This document shows, piece by piece, positions 43,699 through 57,316 of a stretch of DNA of 64,000 nt. The notes below the pieces were generated by a model. That model was not told the origin of the DNA. It worked only from the letters and a program-made list of their open reading frames with translations, and ran no database searches. Both the position numbers and the translations under genes were made by a program. Positions within the stretch are counted from its first letter, which is position 1. Every line of letters begins with the position of its first letter. Origin of the DNA: Planctomycetota bacterium. GTDB lineage: Bacteria > Planctomycetota > UBA1135 > UBA2386. The stretch spans positions 2,560,001 to 2,624,000 of the forward strand of contig OZ245006.1 in the NCBI GenBank assembly GCA_965223545.1, in the 5' to 3' direction.

Positions 43699-44709
43699 AT
43701 GACCATGACCCGTTTGGTGACGATCGCGCTTCCGGTTGCCGGGCTCGCCGCCGCCTGCAACACGCACGAGCCGGGCACGCCATCGAGCAACGACCCACTG
43801 GTCGCCTTTCAACGTTTCACGGAGAGCACGTGGCGGGTCACGCTCGACAGCGGGACCAGTCAACGCGCAACCTGGACCTGGGGCCCGGGACGCCGCTCGC
43901 TGCGCAACGACACCACGGGGCAAGGCGCCGCTGGCGAGCCGTGGCGCGCTCTCGACCTCTACTACTGGGATGCCGAAGGCGAGGAGATCCGCCTCCTCGG
44001 CCTGCGGCCCGCGATCCCCACGCTCGGCCGCGGCGTCGCCACAGGCACCATGCGCGTCGACGCGACGGGTGGCAGGGGTCGGTTTGATCTCTACCAGCCC
44101 GGGCACCCCCGCCCCCCGAGGAAGATGGGGCTCGAGTGGCACTTCGGAGCGCCGGATCGCTACCGAGAGACCCTGCTCGAGGTTTCCCCGGGGGAGCAGA
44201 TGAGCCCACTGGCTACGCGGGACTTCGTCCGCGCCGACCCCGGTACTCCACCGGCCAAAGCCACGAACGCGAGCCCCACTGGCCCCATGTCGCCATTCGC
44301 GTCCTGGTTCCGTGGCGACTGGGTGGCACCCCGCGACCTTGGCGTGGGTCTGCCCGCCGACCTGCGGTTCCGCTGCCGCTGGCTCCCCCTGATCGAGGTC
44401 CTCACCGTGCAGGTCGCAGCCGCCGACTGCGAAGTGCTGTTGCTCGAGGCCTACCTCTATCACCACCCGACCGATGACACGGTGCACTGCACCGCGTTCA
44501 CGGCGGATGGATTCCACGACGGCGTCGCCAAGATCCAAAGCAACGGCGACATCGAAGCCGATCTCTCCGGAGACCAACGCGGCTCGCCGACGCGCGCCGG
44601 GCTTGCCGTGGCAATCACCGCACAGGAACGACCGCGAGTCCGCTGCTGGTCGTCCAGACAGGGCCACCGAGAACTCATCTTGGACGCGTGGCTCCGACCG
44701 ATGCCGTGA
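43699..44709 (+). CDS. Hypothetical lipoprotein
   Basis: Lipobox LAAAC; GGAG RBS; two loosely similar beta-rich halves. Confidence 0.75.
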   Translation: MTMTRLVTIALPVAGLAAACNTHEPGTPSSNDPLVAFQRFTESTWRVTLDSGTSQRATWTWGPGRRSLRNDTTGQGAAGEPWRALDLYYWDAEGEEIRLLGLRPAIPTLGRGVATGTMRVDATGGRGRFDLYQPGHPRPPRKMGLEWHFGAPDRYRETLLEVSPGEQMSPLATRDFVRADPGTPPAKATNASPTGPMSPFASWFRGDWVAPRDLGVGLPADLRFRCRWLPLIEVLTVQVAAADCEVLLLEAYLYHHPTDDTVHCTAFTADGFHDGVAKIQSNGDIEADLSGDQRGSPTRAGLAVAITAQERPRVRCWSSRQGHRELILDAWLRPMP

Positions 44710-45814: not shown

Positions 45815-45967
45815 GTGCTGAGACGATCAGCCCGCTCCGCGGGCGGGGCAGTAGGGAGAGGAGTGGTGTTGTCGGCGATTCCCTACACGTAGTCGCTCAG
45901 CGGAGCGATCATGGTGGGCCCCGACCTGGTCAGCTACTCAGCTTTGCTGGGGGGCCTCAGAGAATCA

Positions 45968-47023
45968 ATGACCGTAGACCTCTTCAAAGAACTCCGCTCC
46001 GACGATGAGCGATGGTGGTGCCTTCTCCCCCAAAACCTCGTGCTCCAGCATGATTGGCTGCTCAAGAGCCACTCGGTAGCGAAAGGCCTCACCTCTGATG
46101 AATTGAGGCCTTTCCTCGCGGCTGCGGTGTACCTCTATTCGCGCAGTATGCAGTCGGTACGGCACGGCGACGGCTTCTATGCGGCGTTGACGCTTCGGTC
46201 GTTGGTAGAGCGAGTCTGCCTACTGTGGACCGACTCGCCGAGCATCCCCTTGAAGCCCGCCGACATCCTTGCGGACCTCGAGTGCTCAGATGTGAAGAAG
46301 CGGCGCCACGCGACTCAAGAGATGGTCGCCGCAGCTGCTAGTGAGGATTCGGATGTCGAGTTCGTCTACCACGACCTGCTGTCACGCTACTTCTCCCACG
46401 TTAGCCATTTCGATCTAGTGCAGAGGCAGTACAGCCAGGAGTTATCGCCGAGCGATCCTGAGTTCCGACTCCGCTACGTGCCCTTCCTTCTGCTTCACGA
46501 CGTCGGGGAGCGCTTGGGCCGCTGGTTCGACGGCTTCTCGACGCGGCATTCGCTCGGGCTTCCACGCAGAACCCAGGGGAAGGCTGGCTTCGAGTACAGC
46601 ATCGAGACTTTCACGCGGCTAGCCGCCATGGCCTTCTGTGAGAAGCACAGTCCCTCGACACCGTTCGAGCTCAGGGTTCTCTTCACCAACTTGGCTGAGG
46701 TCAAGGGGAAGGTCGGGCTCACCCGACTATATCGCGGGGGCATGGAGGTTTACCGGTACGGCCTCCCCGAGGACGCGCCGAACAATGCCGACATGGCTGG
46801 TTTCGCCCTCTTCGCGATCGGGAAGCACAACCCGAAAACCGTGAGGGTCAAGCGCACCGATGTAGGCGCGAAGGGAGAGCGATACGAGTTCTCGTGGCCG
46901 AAAACCGTCGAGGTCTGCACGTTTCCCCTCAGCATGGGCGCGCGGAACATCGAGCTCGGCCACGGACAACCACCACCCTTCATCGACTACGTGACCGAGT
47001 TCCGAAGAGTCCTCGCCCGATAG
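45968..47023 (+). CDS. Hypothetical protein, possible HEPN/DUF5677-like N-terminal domain
   Basis: ALTLRSLVER ... YHDLLSRYFSH pattern; AT-richer codons; start 45968 or 45911. Confidence 0.55.
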   Translation: MTVDLFKELRSDDERWWCLLPQNLVLQHDWLLKSHSVAKGLTSDELRPFLAAAVYLYSRSMQSVRHGDGFYAALTLRSLVERVCLLWTDSPSIPLKPADILADLECSDVKKRRHATQEMVAAAASEDSDVEFVYHDLLSRYFSHVSHFDLVQRQYSQELSPSDPEFRLRYVPFLLLHDVGERLGRWFDGFSTRHSLGLPRRTQGKAGFEYSIETFTRLAAMAFCEKHSPSTPFELRVLFTNLAEVKGKVGLTRLYRGGMEVYRYGLPEDAPNNADMAGFALFAIGKHNPKTVRVKRTDVGAKGERYEFSWPKTVEVCTFPLSMGARNIELGHGQPPPFIDYVTEFRRVLAR

Positions 47024-47058: not shown

Positions 47059-48496
47059 GGCGCTTCAGGAATCTGTGTGGGTAGCTGAAGCTGGATAGAG
47101 GTCGAGGCCGCCGAGATGGAAGAGGATGGCGTTGCGAAAGCGGTCGCGGTTGCGGAAGCCGCAGGCCATCTTCTTGACACGCTGAATCTTGGCATTGATC
47201 GACTCGCTGAGGGCGTTGGACACGCCCTGGGTCACGGCGTTGACGATGCCCCAGAGATGATCGCGGATCATCCGGGCCGCTTGCTTCATCGGTTCGATGC
47301 GACTGCGCATGGCCCAGCCGATCCACTTCTTCCAGGCTCTGCGTGCGTTGCCGGGCCTGAGGTATGTCCAGAGCTTGGTGGCGGCCTCCTTGATGGCCCA
47401 AGCCTTGGCGGTCTTCAGGCCAGCCTGGCGCAGGATGTCGACGATCTCCTCCTGATGGTCGTCGAGCGAGTCGCCGCGTCGCAGCAGGAGGTGCTTGGTT
47501 CGCGTGAGGGTCATGTCGCCCATTGCCGACAGAGCCTTGTGCTCGTCGCACCGGACCTTGTTCAAGGCATCGCCGAGAGCCTTGGAGACATGGAAACGAT
47601 CGAAGGCGATCTTGCGATCGGCGTCGGGGACGTGATCCCTGGTCGACGCGATGTAGGACTTGCTCATGTCCATCGCGACGATCTCGAGGCCGGCCAGCCG
47701 CTCTGCGCCTTCCGCCTTGTAGAAGCCGTCCAGGGACGACTTTCGGCGGTGGTCCGCGACATAGATGACATCGGAGGTCGTGAGATCCGTGACGACCGTG
47801 ACGTACTCGTGCCGCTTCTGGAACGAGGTCTCGTCGACGGCAATGGCGATGAGGTCGCGCTTCTCGCGCCGTGCGAGGCCACGGTCGACCGCCCGTTTCA
47901 TCACGCCATCGACTTCGTCCCAGGTCAGATCGAGCCGTCGAGCGACCGCCGAGATCGTGGCCTCCTTCAGCCAGTCGATGATCAGAGCCTCGTAGAGCGC
48001 CGTGAAGGGAGAGCCAGGAGCTGCCCACGGAACGTCGATCTGTCGGACGCCGTGTTCCGCGCATTCCACCCGCGGCACCTCCGCTTCGAGGATGGTTTGG
48101 TACTGACAGGTGTCGAGGTGGCGCCAGCGGCGATGCCGCGTGTCATACCCCGGGCAGTCCTTGCCGCATTCCGGGCAGATCAGCACAGACCGATTGCCTG
48201 CCTCGACCTTCACCGCGACCAGCTCGAGCTTCGGGTCCAAGTCGACGTCGGTCACCTTCCACGGTGCCTTCAGCCCAAGAATCGTGGCGTAGAGATCACG
48301 GTCGCGCATCCGTGCAATCTACCGGCACACGCCACCAGCATCGCTCCTCGCTCACCCGCAGCTCCGTCACCCTCGGCGTCGGTCGCACCCTCCAAGGCCG
48401 GCGCCGAGGGTGGCGGAGCGAAGGGTGAGCGCCCGTCAGCTCTTGATCCTGAGGAAGAGGGAGTCACCGTCTACCCACACGAATTCCTGAAGACCT
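47059..48496 (-). mobile_element. ISL3-family insertion sequence
   Basis: Terminal IRs GGCGCTTCAGGAATCTGTGTGGGTAG and AGGTCTTCAGGAATTCGTGTGGGTAG; no target duplication seen. Confidence 0.92.
47065..48309 (-). CDS. ISL3 transposase
   Basis: CPECG zinc finger, WRHLD, AVDET, AMDM, DRFHV, SNALSESIN, GFRN. Confidence 0.96.
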   Translation of the reverse strand: MRDRDLYATILGLKAPWKVTDVDLDPKLELVAVKVEAGNRSVLICPECGKDCPGYDTRHRRWRHLDTCQYQTILEAEVPRVECAEHGVRQIDVPWAAPGSPFTALYEALIIDWLKEATISAVARRLDLTWDEVDGVMKRAVDRGLARREKRDLIAIAVDETSFQKRHEYVTVVTDLTTSDVIYVADHRRKSSLDGFYKAEGAERLAGLEIVAMDMSKSYIASTRDHVPDADRKIAFDRFHVSKALGDALNKVRCDEHKALSAMGDMTLTRTKHLLLRRGDSLDDHQEEIVDILRQAGLKTAKAWAIKEAATKLWTYLRPGNARRAWKKWIGWAMRSRIEPMKQAARMIRDHLWGIVNAVTQGVSNALSESINAKIQRVKKMACGFRNRDRFRNAILFHLGGLDLYPASATHTDS

Positions 48497-51433: not shown

Positions 51434-52783
51434 ATGCTTGGCCTCCTTCGGCGCGCTCCGCGATCCGGTCACGGTCAGGCCACACGACGCGGAGTGCTCC
51501 ACTGCGGTTCGCGCCACGCGCGGGAGGACAACACGAACACGGCAACGCGCCAGGACTCGGGCGCCGATGCGGGCCCGTGGGCAGCTTTCGATGACGCTGC
51601 GTGGCGGCAGCGCATGCGGCGGGCCGACGTCGCCGACGAGCTGTTCTTGCCGCTCGACAACAGCCGCTGGAACCGGTCGCGGTTGCGGCTGGTGCCCGGG
51701 GAGCGCGGTGCGGCGCGGACGCGGATCACCGGCGTGCGGTTCTTGGCCGCCGACCCGGCGCGCGAGGATCTCGAGCCCGAGCGCGCGGTGCAGAACGACT
51801 TTCATCGGCTGCTGAGCTCGCTGATCAAGCTGCGCGACGAGCCTTCGGGGCACGGGCTGGCGCTGTCAGGAGAGACCTTCCGCACGTCACCGCGCGGGGA
51901 CGTGCGGCGGTTGCGCTTCGGGCTGCGGCGGCCGCGGCCGGATGCAGCGAAGAACGACGAGCGCCGCGACGCGCGGCGTTGCTATCGGGCCGCGCGGCGG
52001 GCGATCCGGCGCGCCGGCTTCGTCGTCGAGCACCCCAGCACGGGGTTCGACAGCCGTACCGGGCTCGCCGGCTTGCGGGAGTGGACGGACCAGCTGCGGC
52101 TGCGGCGACGGCGGGTGTGGTGGCCCTGGCTTCTGCTGTTGCCGTTGTTGGCGTTGATTCCCAAGTGCGAGCCCGACGCGGCGTTCTTCGGCGCGCCGAT
52201 CGACACCGGTGGCGTGCTGCTGCTGGTCGACCGCAGCGGCAGCATGGAGCAGCACTTCTCCTCGCTGCGCGCCGAGGCCGGCCGCGTCCTCGACGAGCTG
52301 ATCGAGGGCGGGGGCAGCCACTTCAACGTCATCGCCTACGACTCCGGCGCGGAGAGCTGCTTGGGCAGCATGTTGCCGCTCGACGAGAGCACGGCGGAAC
52401 GGCTGCGGGCGTTCCTCGAGGGCCTGCGCTCGGGCGGCGGCACCAACCTCGCCTCGGGGATGGAGGTCGCCGCCCGCGAGGTCGCGCAATTCGGCAAGCC
52501 GACCACCCTGATCGTCCTCACCGACGCGCAGGACGGCAGCATCGACCAGATGCTGGCCGACGGCACGGCCACGCGCGGCGCGTTCGCCGGCATCGAGACG
52601 CGCACCTACGGCCTCACCCCGCGGCTCTACGCACCGGCCAACGCCGTCACCGACGCCAACGCACCAGCACCATCGCCCGCGCCTGCCGCGGCGTCGCAGC
52701 CACAGAGCCAAGAGGAAGAACGGCTCGGCCGGCTCGCCGAGCTGCTCGGCGGCCACTTCGGCGCGCGCGCCCCAACGCAATAG
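51434..52783 (+). CDS. Membrane vWA-domain protein
   Basis: TM helix WWPWLLLLPLLALIP; MIDAS DRSGS...GGTN...LTDA. Confidence 0.85.
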   Translation: MLGLLRRAPRSGHGQATRRGVLHCGSRHAREDNTNTATRQDSGADAGPWAAFDDAAWRQRMRRADVADELFLPLDNSRWNRSRLRLVPGERGAARTRITGVRFLAADPAREDLEPERAVQNDFHRLLSSLIKLRDEPSGHGLALSGETFRTSPRGDVRRLRFGLRRPRPDAAKNDERRDARRCYRAARRAIRRAGFVVEHPSTGFDSRTGLAGLREWTDQLRLRRRRVWWPWLLLLPLLALIPKCEPDAAFFGAPIDTGGVLLLVDRSGSMEQHFSSLRAEAGRVLDELIEGGGSHFNVIAYDSGAESCLGSMLPLDESTAERLRAFLEGLRSGGGTNLASGMEVAAREVAQFGKPTTLIVLTDAQDGSIDQMLADGTATRGAFAGIETRTYGLTPRLYAPANAVTDANAPAPSPAPAAASQPQSQEEERLGRLAELLGGHFGARAPTQ

Positions 52784-52823
52784 CCCAGCACCAGCAACCA
52801 GCCCCGCACCGAACGCCCAGATC

Positions 52824-54905
52824 ATGATCCCCGAAGCGACCATCGAAGCGATCAACGCGGTGCGCACCGCGTTCCTCGACGCCGTGCAGACCGCGCGGGA
52901 GACGCCCAGCTTCCGCACGCTCTGCAACACCTCGGCCGAGCTCGCCGCCGAGCTCGACCGCATCGCCGCGATCGGCGAGCACCGGCACGTGCGCGGCACC
53001 TGCACCGGCGCGATGACGTGCGCGGTGATCGGCTCGAGCGGGCACGGCAAGACCACGATCCTCGACGAGATGTTCCCCGGGCTCGGCGCCCGCGGCTGGC
53101 TCGAGACCGACGTCACCGACACCACGTCGCAGGCGCTGCGGCTGCGCTACGCGCCGCCCGGCGACCCGCGCGCGGACGAGGTGCTGGTCAACTCCTGGTC
53201 CATCCGCCAGATCAAGCACCTGCTCGACCACGACGACGTGCGCCAGCAGAACGAGAACGACAACATCGAGGTCAGCTTCCTCGAGGATTCGGTGATCGTC
53301 GACGGCACCGGCACGACGCTGGATGCGCGCGACCTCGCCGACTGGCGCTATCCGCGCCGCGTCGAGCTGCACCCGTTTGCCGCGCCGTACGAGGCCGGCG
53401 CCAGCGAGAGCCGGGACCGCAAGTTCATCCGCTCGCTGACCGTCAAGGAGCAGTCCGCGGTGCTCGACCCCGGCCCCGTCCTGACGCACGGCGGGCGCAG
53501 CTACAACGCGCTGCAGCTGCGCGCCCTGGTCGAGTCCGTCGACCTGCGCGACGACTTCTCCCAGCTGCGCCAGTGGGCCGGCGAAGGCGCGGCGCGCAGC
53601 GCGGTGGAGACGCTCACCTTCGTCGACACGCCGGGATTGGCCGTCAGCAGCGTGGTGAAGGACGAGGTGCTGCGCCACTTCCTCGGCAAGAAGAGCAACC
53701 AGATCGCGCTCGAGCTGCTGCGCAACGACGAGCTCGACATCGTGGTGCATCTCGTGCTGTGCGGGCAGAAGTCGCAGTTCGACGCCCTGTGGACCGAGAT
53801 CGAGCGCGAGTGCGGCCGGGCCGAGATGGAGGGCATCGCCGAGCGCCTGATCCTGGCGATCAACGGCATGAACATCTACTTCACCAACCCCGACATCCGC
53901 GCCAAGTACACCGATCCGGCGACCACCGCCCGCGAGGGCGACCACTTCGCCGCCACGCTGGAGGACAACATCCTGCAGCGCATGAGCCCGCGCGGGCACC
54001 TGCGGCCGGCGCGCATCGTGTTCCTCGACTCGGCCAACATCGTCAACGCGTTCGGCGACTACAAGGAGTTCTACGCCCGCCACCGGCCGACGATGGAGGC
54101 GTGGGCCGAGCCCGGCGGCGCCGGCCACGACACGCTGGCGCGGCTGGGCTGCGCCGAGGCGTTCCGCGAGAACATCGACGCCCTGGCCGACCCCGAGGAC
54201 CGCGGCCAGGGCCACCTGGTGCGCACCTTGCTCGCGCTGATCGGCGAGCGCGGCACCGGCATCCTGGCGCGCAAGCACTTGGCGCGCACCGGCCTGCTCG
54301 AGGGCATCGATGCCCTGCACGAGCTGCTCGGCCGCTACTACGACGCGCGCGGCCAGCTCAACACCGCCGCCGCGGACGAGGCGCTGGCGCAGTGCCTCGG
54401 CTTCCTCGACCGGCGCGACCTCACTTGCATCGAGCAGTTCGCGCGCGCCGAGATCGATCCCTACATCGACGGGCTGGTGTGCCAGGAGGACGAGGACGCC
54501 GGTGACGACTGGGTGCGCCAGGCGTTCGAGCGCACCTGCGAGCTGGTCAAGGAGGCGATCATCGACGCCAACCAGAGCAAGCTGCCGGCCGCGATTTGGA
54601 CCGAGTTCGGCCGCCTGTTCGACGAGCGGGCGAATGCGTGGTGTGCTCGCTGGGGCTACGCCGAGAGCGAGCTGCCGCCGCCGGACAGCGGCGCCGGCAC
54701 GCGCGACTTGGTCGCCCACAGCCTGAGCCTGCACGCCCGCGAGATTCTCTACCAACTGCTGACCAGCGAGACGGGGGGCGATGCCACCCGCAGCTTCGCT
54801 CAAACCGAAGCGGACCGGGCGGCGATCGAGACCACGCTGCGCGCGCTCGAGCAGGCGCGCACCGACGGCCAGACGCTCTGCACCAAGCACGGGGTCCAAG
54901 CATGA
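52824..54905 (+). CDS. Dynamin-like / SrfC-like P-loop GTPase
   Basis: G1 GSSGHGKTT, G2 DTTS, G3 FVDTPG, long helical C-terminus. Confidence 0.75.
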   Translation: MIPEATIEAINAVRTAFLDAVQTARETPSFRTLCNTSAELAAELDRIAAIGEHRHVRGTCTGAMTCAVIGSSGHGKTTILDEMFPGLGARGWLETDVTDTTSQALRLRYAPPGDPRADEVLVNSWSIRQIKHLLDHDDVRQQNENDNIEVSFLEDSVIVDGTGTTLDARDLADWRYPRRVELHPFAAPYEAGASESRDRKFIRSLTVKEQSAVLDPGPVLTHGGRSYNALQLRALVESVDLRDDFSQLRQWAGEGAARSAVETLTFVDTPGLAVSSVVKDEVLRHFLGKKSNQIALELLRNDELDIVVHLVLCGQKSQFDALWTEIERECGRAEMEGIAERLILAINGMNIYFTNPDIRAKYTDPATTAREGDHFAATLEDNILQRMSPRGHLRPARIVFLDSANIVNAFGDYKEFYARHRPTMEAWAEPGGAGHDTLARLGCAEAFRENIDALADPEDRGQGHLVRTLLALIGERGTGILARKHLARTGLLEGIDALHELLGRYYDARGQLNTAAADEALAQCLGFLDRRDLTCIEQFARAEIDPYIDGLVCQEDEDAGDDWVRQAFERTCELVKEAIIDANQSKLPAAIWTEFGRLFDERANAWCARWGYAESELPPPDSGAGTRDLVAHSLSLHAREILYQLLTSETGGDATRSFAQTEADRAAIETTLRALEQARTDGQTLCTKHGVQA

Positions 54906-57316
54906 AGCCCGCACCACCACAGTCTTCCACCGCCGCCAACCGCCCCAGCAGCTACCACTGGATCGTCCTGCCCAACACCGGGGTGCAAATCTGCCGCGGC
55001 TTCCCGATCGCGGGCTCGCTCGAGCAAGAAGCGGAGCGGCTCTTCGAGTCGGCGACCAAGCTGGCGAACAAGCAGACCGAGAGCGAGGCGTTGCGACTGA
55101 TCGAGGAGCACATCGCCTGCAACCAGGACCTCGACGCGACCCCGTGGGTCCAGTGCGACCCCAACGAGTTCGTGTTCTACCGGCTGCGGCGCGCCGGCGG
55201 CGAGCTGCAGCTCGACCTGGTGATGGACACCTGCAACGGCGCCGGCGCGCAGGCCGGCAACCGTGTGCCGCTGCGCGTCGACGGCCGCGCGCTCTCGCTG
55301 CGGCGGCCGCAACCGTTGGCCGAGATCTACGTCGAGCACCACCAGAACGCCCGCAACGAGCTGGGCAGCTTGATCGTCGACTTCGGCAACACCGGCAGTG
55401 CTTTCGTGTTCTCGCGCGACGGGGCCGGCCCGCTGCAGGCGCGCATCGTCGAGGCCAACAACCCGTTCGACCCCGACTACCGCAGCCGCGGCGACGCCGA
55501 GCGCCACGTGCTGCGCTCCAACATGATCGTGCTCCGCGTCAGCCCCAACGAGCACGAGACGCCGTGGATCGTGCTCGGCCAACGCGCCGAAGAGCTCATC
55601 AGGAGCCACCCGCTGACCAGCTACCTGTACGCGCCGAAGAAATACGTGCGCGACTGGCCCGAGGCGCTGCGCGCGCCGGAGCCGACGATGAAGTTCCGCG
55701 GCATCTGCGGCCAGCGCGTCGGCCTGCACCCGATGCTGCACTTCGTGCGCACGACGCTGGACCAGATGTTCCAGCACGTGCTGGCCTCGCTCACCAACCC
55801 GCAGTTCACCTCGGACGCGCCCGACTTCTATCCGCAGATCGGGCGGGTGATGCTGACCTATCCGCTGACCTGGCGGCGGGTCGACCGGCAGCTGTTCCAG
55901 AAGCTCGTACACGACACCGCGACGCGGCTGCTGGCGCACGAGGGCGAGCGCGGCGAGCAGTTCGAAGTCGAGCTGATCTGCAGCGAGCCGGTGGCGGTCG
56001 CCGCCTACGTGCTGTGGGAGACGATCTTCCACTACGAGGCCCCCAACCTGCGGCTGGCGGCGGCTACCCTGGGCAACACAACCGGCGCGCCCAACCTGCG
56101 CATGCTGGTACTCGACATCGGCGGCGGCTCGACCGACATCGCCTGCGTCGACATCGGTTGGAACGTCAAGACCGAGGACGGCTCCGTCGACGTCACCTTC
56201 AAGATGATCGAGTCGATGCGCTTCAACCGCGCCGGCGACCGGCTGTCGCACATCATCGCCACCGCGATCGTGCGATTCTTGGCCGAGAAGTACGACCTGC
56301 AAGAGCCACTGGACTTCCTGGCCGAGTCGCGCGAGCCCGCGTTCACGCTGACGCAGAAGCGCCAGGCGGTGTCGCGGATCTCGCTACTGGCGGAAGAGTG
56401 CAAGCGCGCCGTCGCCGGCGCGGAGGGCGAGTGGCAGCTCGAGGCCGAGGCCGAGCAAGAGCTGGTGGCCTGCTTCGCCCCGCTCCTCGATGGCGAGGGC
56501 TGGCGCGACCGCGCGGCCCAGCGCCCGTTCTTGCGCATCACCGAGGACACCCTGCGGACTTGGTTGAGCCAAGACAGCCAGTCGCTGTCGCTGGAGACCA
56601 ACGGCGAGCCGGGCTTCCAGGACATCTTCGTCTACCTGGGCGAGCTGCGCCGCTCGCTGGCCGCCAAGGGGCGCGACCCGCACGTGGTGATCCTCAGCGG
56701 ACGCACCACGCGCCTCGGCCTACTGCGCACGCTCGCCGCCAAGAGCCTGCGCCTGCCGCTGCACCGCGTGCGCACCTTGGACGGAATCCTGCCGGATTCC
56801 CTGCGCCGCAACGGCCAGCTCAGTTTGGACAAGCTGGCGGTCGTGTTCGGCGCCCAGCGGTTCCGCTTCGGCGACCACATCCGTTTCATCGCGCTGCCGG
56901 AAGAGGCGATCTTCAACCGCTACATCGGCACCGTGCGCGAGAGCCGCACCGGCCTGCGCCTCAATCGCATCCTGATCGAGCCCGGCGACAGCACACCGCG
57001 CTCGATCCGCGTCACCGTCGAGCCGGCGCGCGACGTCCGCATTGGGCACGCCTTTCGCAACAACGGCAGCGCCCAAGTCATCGCCAACCTGTCCAACCGA
57101 TCGCACAGCGAGGCGTTCGAGGTCGAGCTCGAGGTGCTCGACGACTTCTCGGTGCGGATGGCACCGCACGACCACGTCCTGCTCAGCGAGTGGGTGCCCG
57201 GCGGCAACGACTTCGTGGTCGACAACTTCAACGACACCGGCCGCATCGACCGCGAGCCCGCGGGGCTGCTGAGCGGGGTCGTCGACGCCAACCGCGACGC
57301 CTGGCTGGTGGACTGA
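54902..57316 (+). CDS. Actin/Hsp70-fold ATPase, SrfB-like
   Basis: VDFGNTGS, LTYP, SEPVAVA, LDIGGGSTD, FNRAGD, ILSGRTTRL; ATGA overlap with the GTPase. Confidence 0.8.
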   Translation: MKPAPPQSSTAANRPSSYHWIVLPNTGVQICRGFPIAGSLEQEAERLFESATKLANKQTESEALRLIEEHIACNQDLDATPWVQCDPNEFVFYRLRRAGGELQLDLVMDTCNGAGAQAGNRVPLRVDGRALSLRRPQPLAEIYVEHHQNARNELGSLIVDFGNTGSAFVFSRDGAGPLQARIVEANNPFDPDYRSRGDAERHVLRSNMIVLRVSPNEHETPWIVLGQRAEELIRSHPLTSYLYAPKKYVRDWPEALRAPEPTMKFRGICGQRVGLHPMLHFVRTTLDQMFQHVLASLTNPQFTSDAPDFYPQIGRVMLTYPLTWRRVDRQLFQKLVHDTATRLLAHEGERGEQFEVELICSEPVAVAAYVLWETIFHYEAPNLRLAAATLGNTTGAPNLRMLVLDIGGGSTDIACVDIGWNVKTEDGSVDVTFKMIESMRFNRAGDRLSHIIATAIVRFLAEKYDLQEPLDFLAESREPAFTLTQKRQAVSRISLLAEECKRAVAGAEGEWQLEAEAEQELVACFAPLLDGEGWRDRAAQRPFLRITEDTLRTWLSQDSQSLSLETNGEPGFQDIFVYLGELRRSLAAKGRDPHVVILSGRTTRLGLLRTLAAKSLRLPLHRVRTLDGILPDSLRRNGQLSLDKLAVVFGAQRFRFGDHIRFIALPEEAIFNRYIGTVRESRTGLRLNRILIEPGDSTPRSIRVTVEPARDVRIGHAFRNNGSAQVIANLSNRSHSEAFEVELEVLDDFSVRMAPHDHVLLSEWVPGGNDFVVDNFNDTGRIDREPAGLLSGVVDANRDAWLVD

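What the first reader, a model, noticed from the sequence alone, without database searches (positions are those of the whole stretch)
51434..57316. Three-gene vWA / dynamin-like GTPase / actin-fold ATPase operon: divergent SrfABC-like machine
Seen: tightly spaced genes for a membrane vWA with full MIDAS, a 693-aa P-loop protein with a non-canonical G4 region (AINGMN) and an 804-aa ATPase whose DIGGGSTD, AGD and LSGR motifs resemble SrfB. Known: SrfB/SrfC are of unknown mechanism. Inference: a two-NTPase membrane-remodelling or conflict system with a vWA sensor in place of SrfA, in a probable non-pathogen.
Basis: partly seen in the sequence, partly recalled or inferred. Interest (0 to 1): 0.7.

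Follow-up and report, generated by a model that had tools for sequence, protein, structure and literature searches.

The report
Hsp70–dynamin–vWA membrane operon, SrfB-related
Three adjacent genes encode a membrane-anchored adhesion-type (vWA) protein, a dynamin-like GTPase and a stripped-down Hsp70 ATPase distantly related to the "virulence factor" SrfB; they travel together across unrelated environmental bacteria and probably form an untested membrane-remodelling machine with its own chaperone.

The parts
51434..52783 (+). Gene A: conserved N-terminal domain + basic run/short hydrophobic segment ending in Cys + vWA domain with MIDAS (start codon uncertain; homology begins near residue 50)
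51581..52111 (+). A-N domain (res. 50-226), family-specific, predicted cytoplasmic; no Pfam, NCBIfam or Atlas hit; fold untested
52115..52168 (+). Hydrophobic segment (res. 228-245) preceded by an Arg run and closed by Cys245 (Cys at or beside this position in 21 of 25 members); matches the SrfA membrane segment
   Evidence: hhalign 65%, 24 columns, low complexity
52214..52762 (+). vWA domain, MIDAS D266/S268/S270/T337/D364, predicted periplasmic
52824..54905 (+). Gene C: dynamin-like NTPase; G domain with inserts, N- and C-terminal helices, helical trunk (462-647), no TM paddle; G4 is N-G-x-N
54902..57316 (+). Gene B: SrfB-related Hsp70-like ATPase with a 150-aa N-terminal extension
55358..56899 (+). 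B nucleotide-binding domain (res. 153-666), Hsp70 fold
56900..57196 (+). B beta-sandwich (res. ~667-765) aligning with the Hsp70 substrate-binding beta domain; no helical lid follows
   Evidence: BiP 5e84 model 154-764 vs 28-527; DnaK 4b9q 154-765 vs 2-505; rmsd about 6

Best explanation
A self-contained inner-membrane module in which a dedicated, lid-less Hsp70 (B) controls a dynamin-like NTPase (C). A sits in the membrane with its N-domain inside and a metal-dependent vWA outside, and localises the machine where the vWA binds an envelope ligand. C lacks its own membrane paddle, so it is recruited through A/B, oligomerises through its G domains and tethers or reshapes membrane. B's ATP cycle primes or dismantles the C polymer. 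In the commoner five-gene form, a membrane-anchored, possibly GrpE-like protein (D) and a TM coiled-coil protein (E) complete the cycle; the window's lineage runs without them. The likely role is envelope remodelling or repair. SHOWN: folds (predicted models), motif conservation, gene linkage, absence of a TM in C. INFERRED: all interactions, topology, nucleotide use, membrane activity and the physiological role.
Against: No interaction or activity was tested. G4 lacks the Lys/Asp of [NT]KxD, so GTP use is uncertain. The substrate-domain match has rmsd about 6 and is secondary to the NBD match. No J-domain partner recurs in the loci. The vWA is dispensable in 2 of 29 loci (L006, L018) and D/E are absent in several lineages, including this genome. 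The GrpE reading of D is weak. Patchy spread (4 of 60 relatives) and nearby IS elements suit an accessory or defence module as well as a housekeeping one.
Confidence: 0.45

Rival explanations
1. An anti-phage or conflict system: the vWA senses a phage or contact signal, B acts as a threshold switch, and C seals or ruptures the membrane.
For: Bacterial DLPs defend against phage (DynA, PMC8844932, listing abstract; two-gene dynamin system, bioRxiv 2022.05.11.491447, passages). Hosts include filamentous or aggregating taxa (Parabeggiatoa, Desulfonema, planctomycetes; Thiohalocapsa for a distant relative), as for the GTPase/HSP70 conflict systems of PMC7159879 (passages). The distribution is patchy. 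One canonical srfBC locus abuts BREX genes.
Against: PADLOC: 0 hits for the three proteins; 5 of 135 neighbours hit, and these look generic (kinase, methyltransferase, desulfurase, helicase-like, PDC). Named neighbours are mostly metabolic or housekeeping. There is no variable effector gene. The vWA is not hypervariable (median 41% identity vs 39% A-N, 46% C, 59% B).
Confidence: 0.25
2. An assembly or export machine: B and C fold, present or release the vWA (possibly as a lipoprotein at Cys245) or shape vesicles that carry it, serving adhesion or aggregation rather than repair.
For: A basic run, hydrophobic segment and conserved Cys resemble an internal lipoprotein-type signal. In canonical srf loci the SrfA-N anchor carries interchangeable outer domains: lipocalin (bioRxiv 10.64898/2026.09.18.752743, passages), vWA, trypsin and subtilase. 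That preprint proposes vesicle export.
Against: No ABC transporter/permease or FGE gene recurs beside this family, unlike canonical loci. The residues before the Cys are not a canonical lipobox (recalled consensus). Two loci lack the vWA.
Confidence: 0.15
3. A secreted tripartite toxin against eukaryotes, as proposed for Xenorhabdus SrfABC.
For: B is homologous to SrfB, and SrfABC was reported cytotoxic to insect and mammalian cells (PMC6950479, passages).
Against: Hosts are environmental. No toxin domain was found. B and C look like cytoplasmic NTPases. A preprint doubts the 'secreted effector' label for SrfA. C and A are not demonstrably SrfC and SrfA.
Confidence: 0.07

Closest known systems
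SrfABC (Salmonella, Xenorhabdus, Enterobacter; Pfam PF07520 SrfB, PF10139 SrfC)
   Same: B is a remote SrfB homologue (hhalign 99.94%, E 2e-37, 552 columns against SrfB-like proteins; 98.2% against 13 canonical SrfB). Both pair it with a P-loop GTPase-type protein and a single-pass protein with N-domain, basic-Trp-Leu segment and often Cys. vWA genes occur in srf loci.
   Different: B scores below the Pfam SrfB cut-off (16.3 vs 27.1 bits) and is about 200 aa shorter. C-SrfC similarity is 18% (P 0.0013), below that of a generic DLP cluster (46%). A-N vs SrfA-N is not significant. Order is A-C-B, not A-B-C. No ABC transporter or FGE module; extra genes E and D.
'Chaperone clade' of cyanobacterial dynamin-like proteins (Jilly et al. 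2018, PMC5827413)
   Same: DLP gene directly followed by a DnaK-domain gene; the authors link membrane remodelling to Hsp70 activity (passages).
   Different: No vWA anchor or D/E genes are mentioned in the passages seen. C lacks the extended P-loop motif GKS/TxL/INALL/I described for cyanobacterial DLPs (C reads GKTTILDEMF). Sequence relationship to that clade was not tested; their supplement was not read.
Bacterial dynamin-like proteins SynDLP, BDLP1, IniA, Campylobacter DLP1/2; mitofusin
   Same: G domain plus helical neck and trunk.
   Different: 10-14% identity, no TM paddle, N-G-x-N at G4, a single DLP rather than a pair, obligate linkage to an Hsp70-like ATPase.
DnaK/Hsp70 with GrpE
   Same: NBD fold and motifs, linker and beta-sandwich; D may echo GrpE.
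   Different: 150-aa N-extension, about 130 aa of NBD inserts, no lid, no recurring J protein; below HSP70 Pfam detection.
DO-GTPase/GAP1 conflict systems with HSP70 and GrpE (Kaur et al. 2020, PMC7159879)
   Same: TRAFAC GTPase, HSP70, GrpE, vWA and TM components, in planctomycetes and multicellular bacteria (passages).
   Different: No GAP1, no zinc ribbon, no Walker-B Glu (C has DTPG), no variable effectors.

Membership tests
SrfABC system | SrfB-family ATPase | tested here: met
   Remote homologue: (an SrfB-like profile picks B in the own genome, E 1.7e-16); below the Pfam cut-off itself.
SrfABC system | SrfC (PF10139) orthologue | tested here: inconclusive
   No PF10139 hit. Collinear but weak hhalign, 18%, 468 columns, not better than a generic DLP cluster. 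No SrfC model was built.
SrfABC system | SrfA-N (kinase-like) domain | tested here: inconclusive
   hhalign P 0.45 vs SrfA-N and 0.094 vs kinases; the test is insensitive, since SrfA-N vs kinases gave only P 0.03.
SrfABC system | Gene order srfA-srfB-srfC with lipocalin outer domain | tested here: not met
   Order A-C-B, outer domain vWA.
Dynamin-like proteins | TRAFAC G domain (G1, G2 Thr, G3) with helical neck and trunk | tested here: met
Dynamin-like proteins | G4 [NT]KxD (recalled consensus) | tested here: not met
   N347-G348-x-N350; lowers certainty about nucleotide, not the fold.
Dynamin-like proteins | NTP-dependent oligomerisation and membrane remodelling | not testable with these tools
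   needs biochemistry
Hsp70 family | Hsp70-type NBD with phosphate-1, catalytic Glu, phosphate-2 and adenosine motifs | tested here: met
Hsp70 family | Substrate-binding beta domain | tested here: inconclusive
   Aligned to BiP/DnaK residues up to about 505-527 at rmsd about 6; the domain was not folded alone.
Hsp70 family | Alpha-helical lid | tested here: not met
   Only about 40 residues with short helices follow the sandwich.
GrpE (gene D of related loci, absent from the window) | Helical hairpin plus C-terminal beta head | tested here: inconclusive
   No Pfam GrpE hit in 19 members. Atlas GrpE cluster 0.83, rank 7. Full-length hhalign P 0.02-0.07. Head-only global score 18.1 vs best of 100 shuffles 10.6, region chosen after the fact.
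Two-gene dynamin anti-phage system (LeoABC-like) | Two consecutive DLPs, beside defence genes | tested here: not met
   One DLP; no PADLOC hit; 5 of 135 neighbours with generic hits.
DO-GTPase/GAP1 systems | GAP1 gene, Walker-B Glu, variable effectors | tested here: not met
   DTPG at G3; recurring neighbours limited to A, C, B, E, D. No GAP1 profile was available to scan.

The most novel reading that the evidence does not exclude
This family is a minimal, non-pathogen version of the SrfABC machine and shows that the whole 'Srf virulence factor' class is a trans-membrane signalling and remodelling device. An outer ligand-binding domain on an SrfA-type (pseudokinase-like) anchor triggers a membrane-bound Hsp70 cycle, with its own membrane-tethered GrpE-like exchange factor, that assembles and disassembles a paddle-less dynamin with altered nucleotide specificity. 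That would be a bacterial dynamin under dedicated chaperone control, coupled to an extracytoplasmic sensor.
Probability: 0.25. Interest if true: 0.8.

Novelty: new variant of a known kind. Interest (0 to 1): 0.52.

Why it matters
SrfB and SrfC are widespread and labelled virulence factors with no assigned function (PMC11942329, passages). This compact 3- to 5-gene family from environmental bacteria, including a cultured strain (Rubripirellula obstinata, L013), gives a small, testable model for what an SrfB-type Hsp70 does with a dynamin-like partner. It also offers a natural loss experiment (E and D present or absent) and a dynamin with a conserved non-standard G4. In planctomycetes, known for complex envelopes (recalled), it is a candidate membrane-shaping module, though its patchy spread rules it out as a core one.

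Full report
Observation. The three ORFs exist as described, tightly spaced, with C and B overlapping by 4 bp. GC is about 70%, like most of the window, whereas the upstream 46-50 kb region is 62-64% and holds an ISL3 transposase. Library hits are thin: VWA_2 for A (above cut-off), Dynamin_N E 0.003 for C and SrfB E 0.003 for B, both below cut-off. There was nothing in PADLOC. The closest homologues are labelled Planctomycetota, so the host is probably one (inference).

Conservation. Protein searches gave 145 relatives of B and 127 of C (120 of each listed, lowest listed identities 40% and 33%). Of 31 genome loci fetched with the B alignment, 29 hold A-N, C and B. The two others are a contig edge (L016) and a B fragment (L030). 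27 have the vWA, L006 and L018 end after the membrane segment, and L026 has A moved downstream. Several loci carry frameshifts or a truncated C (L006, L012, L022, L031). 27 metagenome loci give the same picture where contigs allow, some duplicating the first set. Hosts span Planctomycetota, Verrucomicrobiota, Omnitrophota, Thiotrichaceae and Competibacteraceae, plus Desulfonema. Among 60 relatives of the host, 4 have B; these are not independent of the closest loci above.

Extra genes. Clustering all neighbour ORFs found one further recurring family, D, in 19 of 31 loci, with a variable TM/coiled-coil gene E between B and D. D has an N-terminal hydrophobic helix followed by basic residues, a helical part and a conserved C-terminal beta motif. 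It resembles GrpE only weakly. D was not found in this genome or in 5 others tested. In a quick tree of 46 B proteins the window's D-less clade (6 rows, support 100) nests among D-bearing lineages, which suggests loss; deep forks are open and the root is for drawing only.

Protein A. The layout is a conserved N-domain, an Arg run, a short Trp/Leu segment ending in Cys, then a vWA with MIDAS; the positive-inside rule suggests N-in, vWA-out (inference). A preprint describes SrfA as a kinase-like N-domain, TM and periplasmic lipocalin, modelled as the platform for SrfB (10.64898/2026.09.18.752743, passages). In canonical loci I found SrfA-N paralogues fused to vWA, trypsin or subtilase domains. 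A fits this grammar and its membrane segment matches, but A-N itself showed no significant similarity to SrfA-N or kinases in a test too weak to exclude it. The vWA diverges no faster than A-N, which argues against an arms-race sensor.

Context. Of 236 called neighbours, 135 were scanned with PADLOC, giving 5 hits of generic kinds. 91 were scanned with NCBIfam at E 1e-30; named hits were mostly metabolic, with a few mobile elements. Other SrfB-like branches in the same phylum lie beside a DLP (1 of 6 loci examined) or a protein with a GrpE-like C-terminus (3 of 6, one family).

Mechanism and comparison. The best-supported reading is a membrane-tethered Hsp70 that controls assembly of a paddle-less dynamin at sites marked by the vWA anchor (0.45). 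Rivals are phage defence (0.25), export or adhesion (0.15) and a secreted toxin (0.07). It works like the cyanobacterial DLP-DnaK pairs (PMC5827413, passages) and, by analogy, Hsp70 control of VIPP1 (PMC12798727, abstract). It is related to SrfABC through B but is not filed as SrfABC, because gene order and outer domain differ and A and C orthology is unproven. Earlier AI notes of this scan report similar themes in other genomes; they are leads, not support, and none covers look-alike DNA. Verdict: real, conserved, untested; new variant of a known kind; interest 0.52.

Noticed in passing
L040:6061-7329, L039:5804-7669, L041:14744-17338: Canonical srf loci carry SrfA-N paralogues joined to different outer domains (vWA, trypsin, S8 subtilase), so SrfA-N plus TM looks like a modular anchor.
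   Followed up: partly
relatives searched: In the host's family the 5 genomes with B are 8.1-10.3 Mb and the 32 without are 3.6-7.9 Mb; kin are not independent and many are incomplete.
   Followed up: no
L181:8379-18433, L182, L185: A different SrfB-like branch (10 of 11 genomes of one family) lies two genes from a 1,300-aa protein with a GrpE-like C-terminus (E about 2e-6).
   Followed up: partly
L180:3338-16061: An SrfB-like gene sits between a 1,199-aa protein with a tubulin-like start motif (recalled motif) and an 1,140-aa protein with signal peptide and vWA-like motif.
   Followed up: no
L144-L147, L149, L150: Divergent GrpE-domain genes, some 600+ aa, directly precede second Hsp70 genes of about 580-600 aa in Planctomycetota-phylum genomes.
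   Followed up: no
window:49975-51258 (-): Divergent 427-aa ORF with a signal-peptide-like start and Gly-rich GxGVxG repeats; no Pfam hit.
   Followed up: no
window:43699-49900: Lower-GC stretch with an ISL3 transposase (47065-48309) and orphan ORFs (43699-44709, 45911-47023) between mutS-like and the operon.
   Followed up: partly
L006:9219-9986; L009:5567-9968; L129:98-2030; L134: Rearranged or decaying copies: C truncated in L006, large gaps between genes in L009, part of C inverted in L129, D displaced about 6 kb in L134.
   Followed up: no
L154 (G000:C1:4440000-4457000): The host genome has a separate 620-aa Dynamin_N-family gene unrelated to this operon.
   Followed up: no
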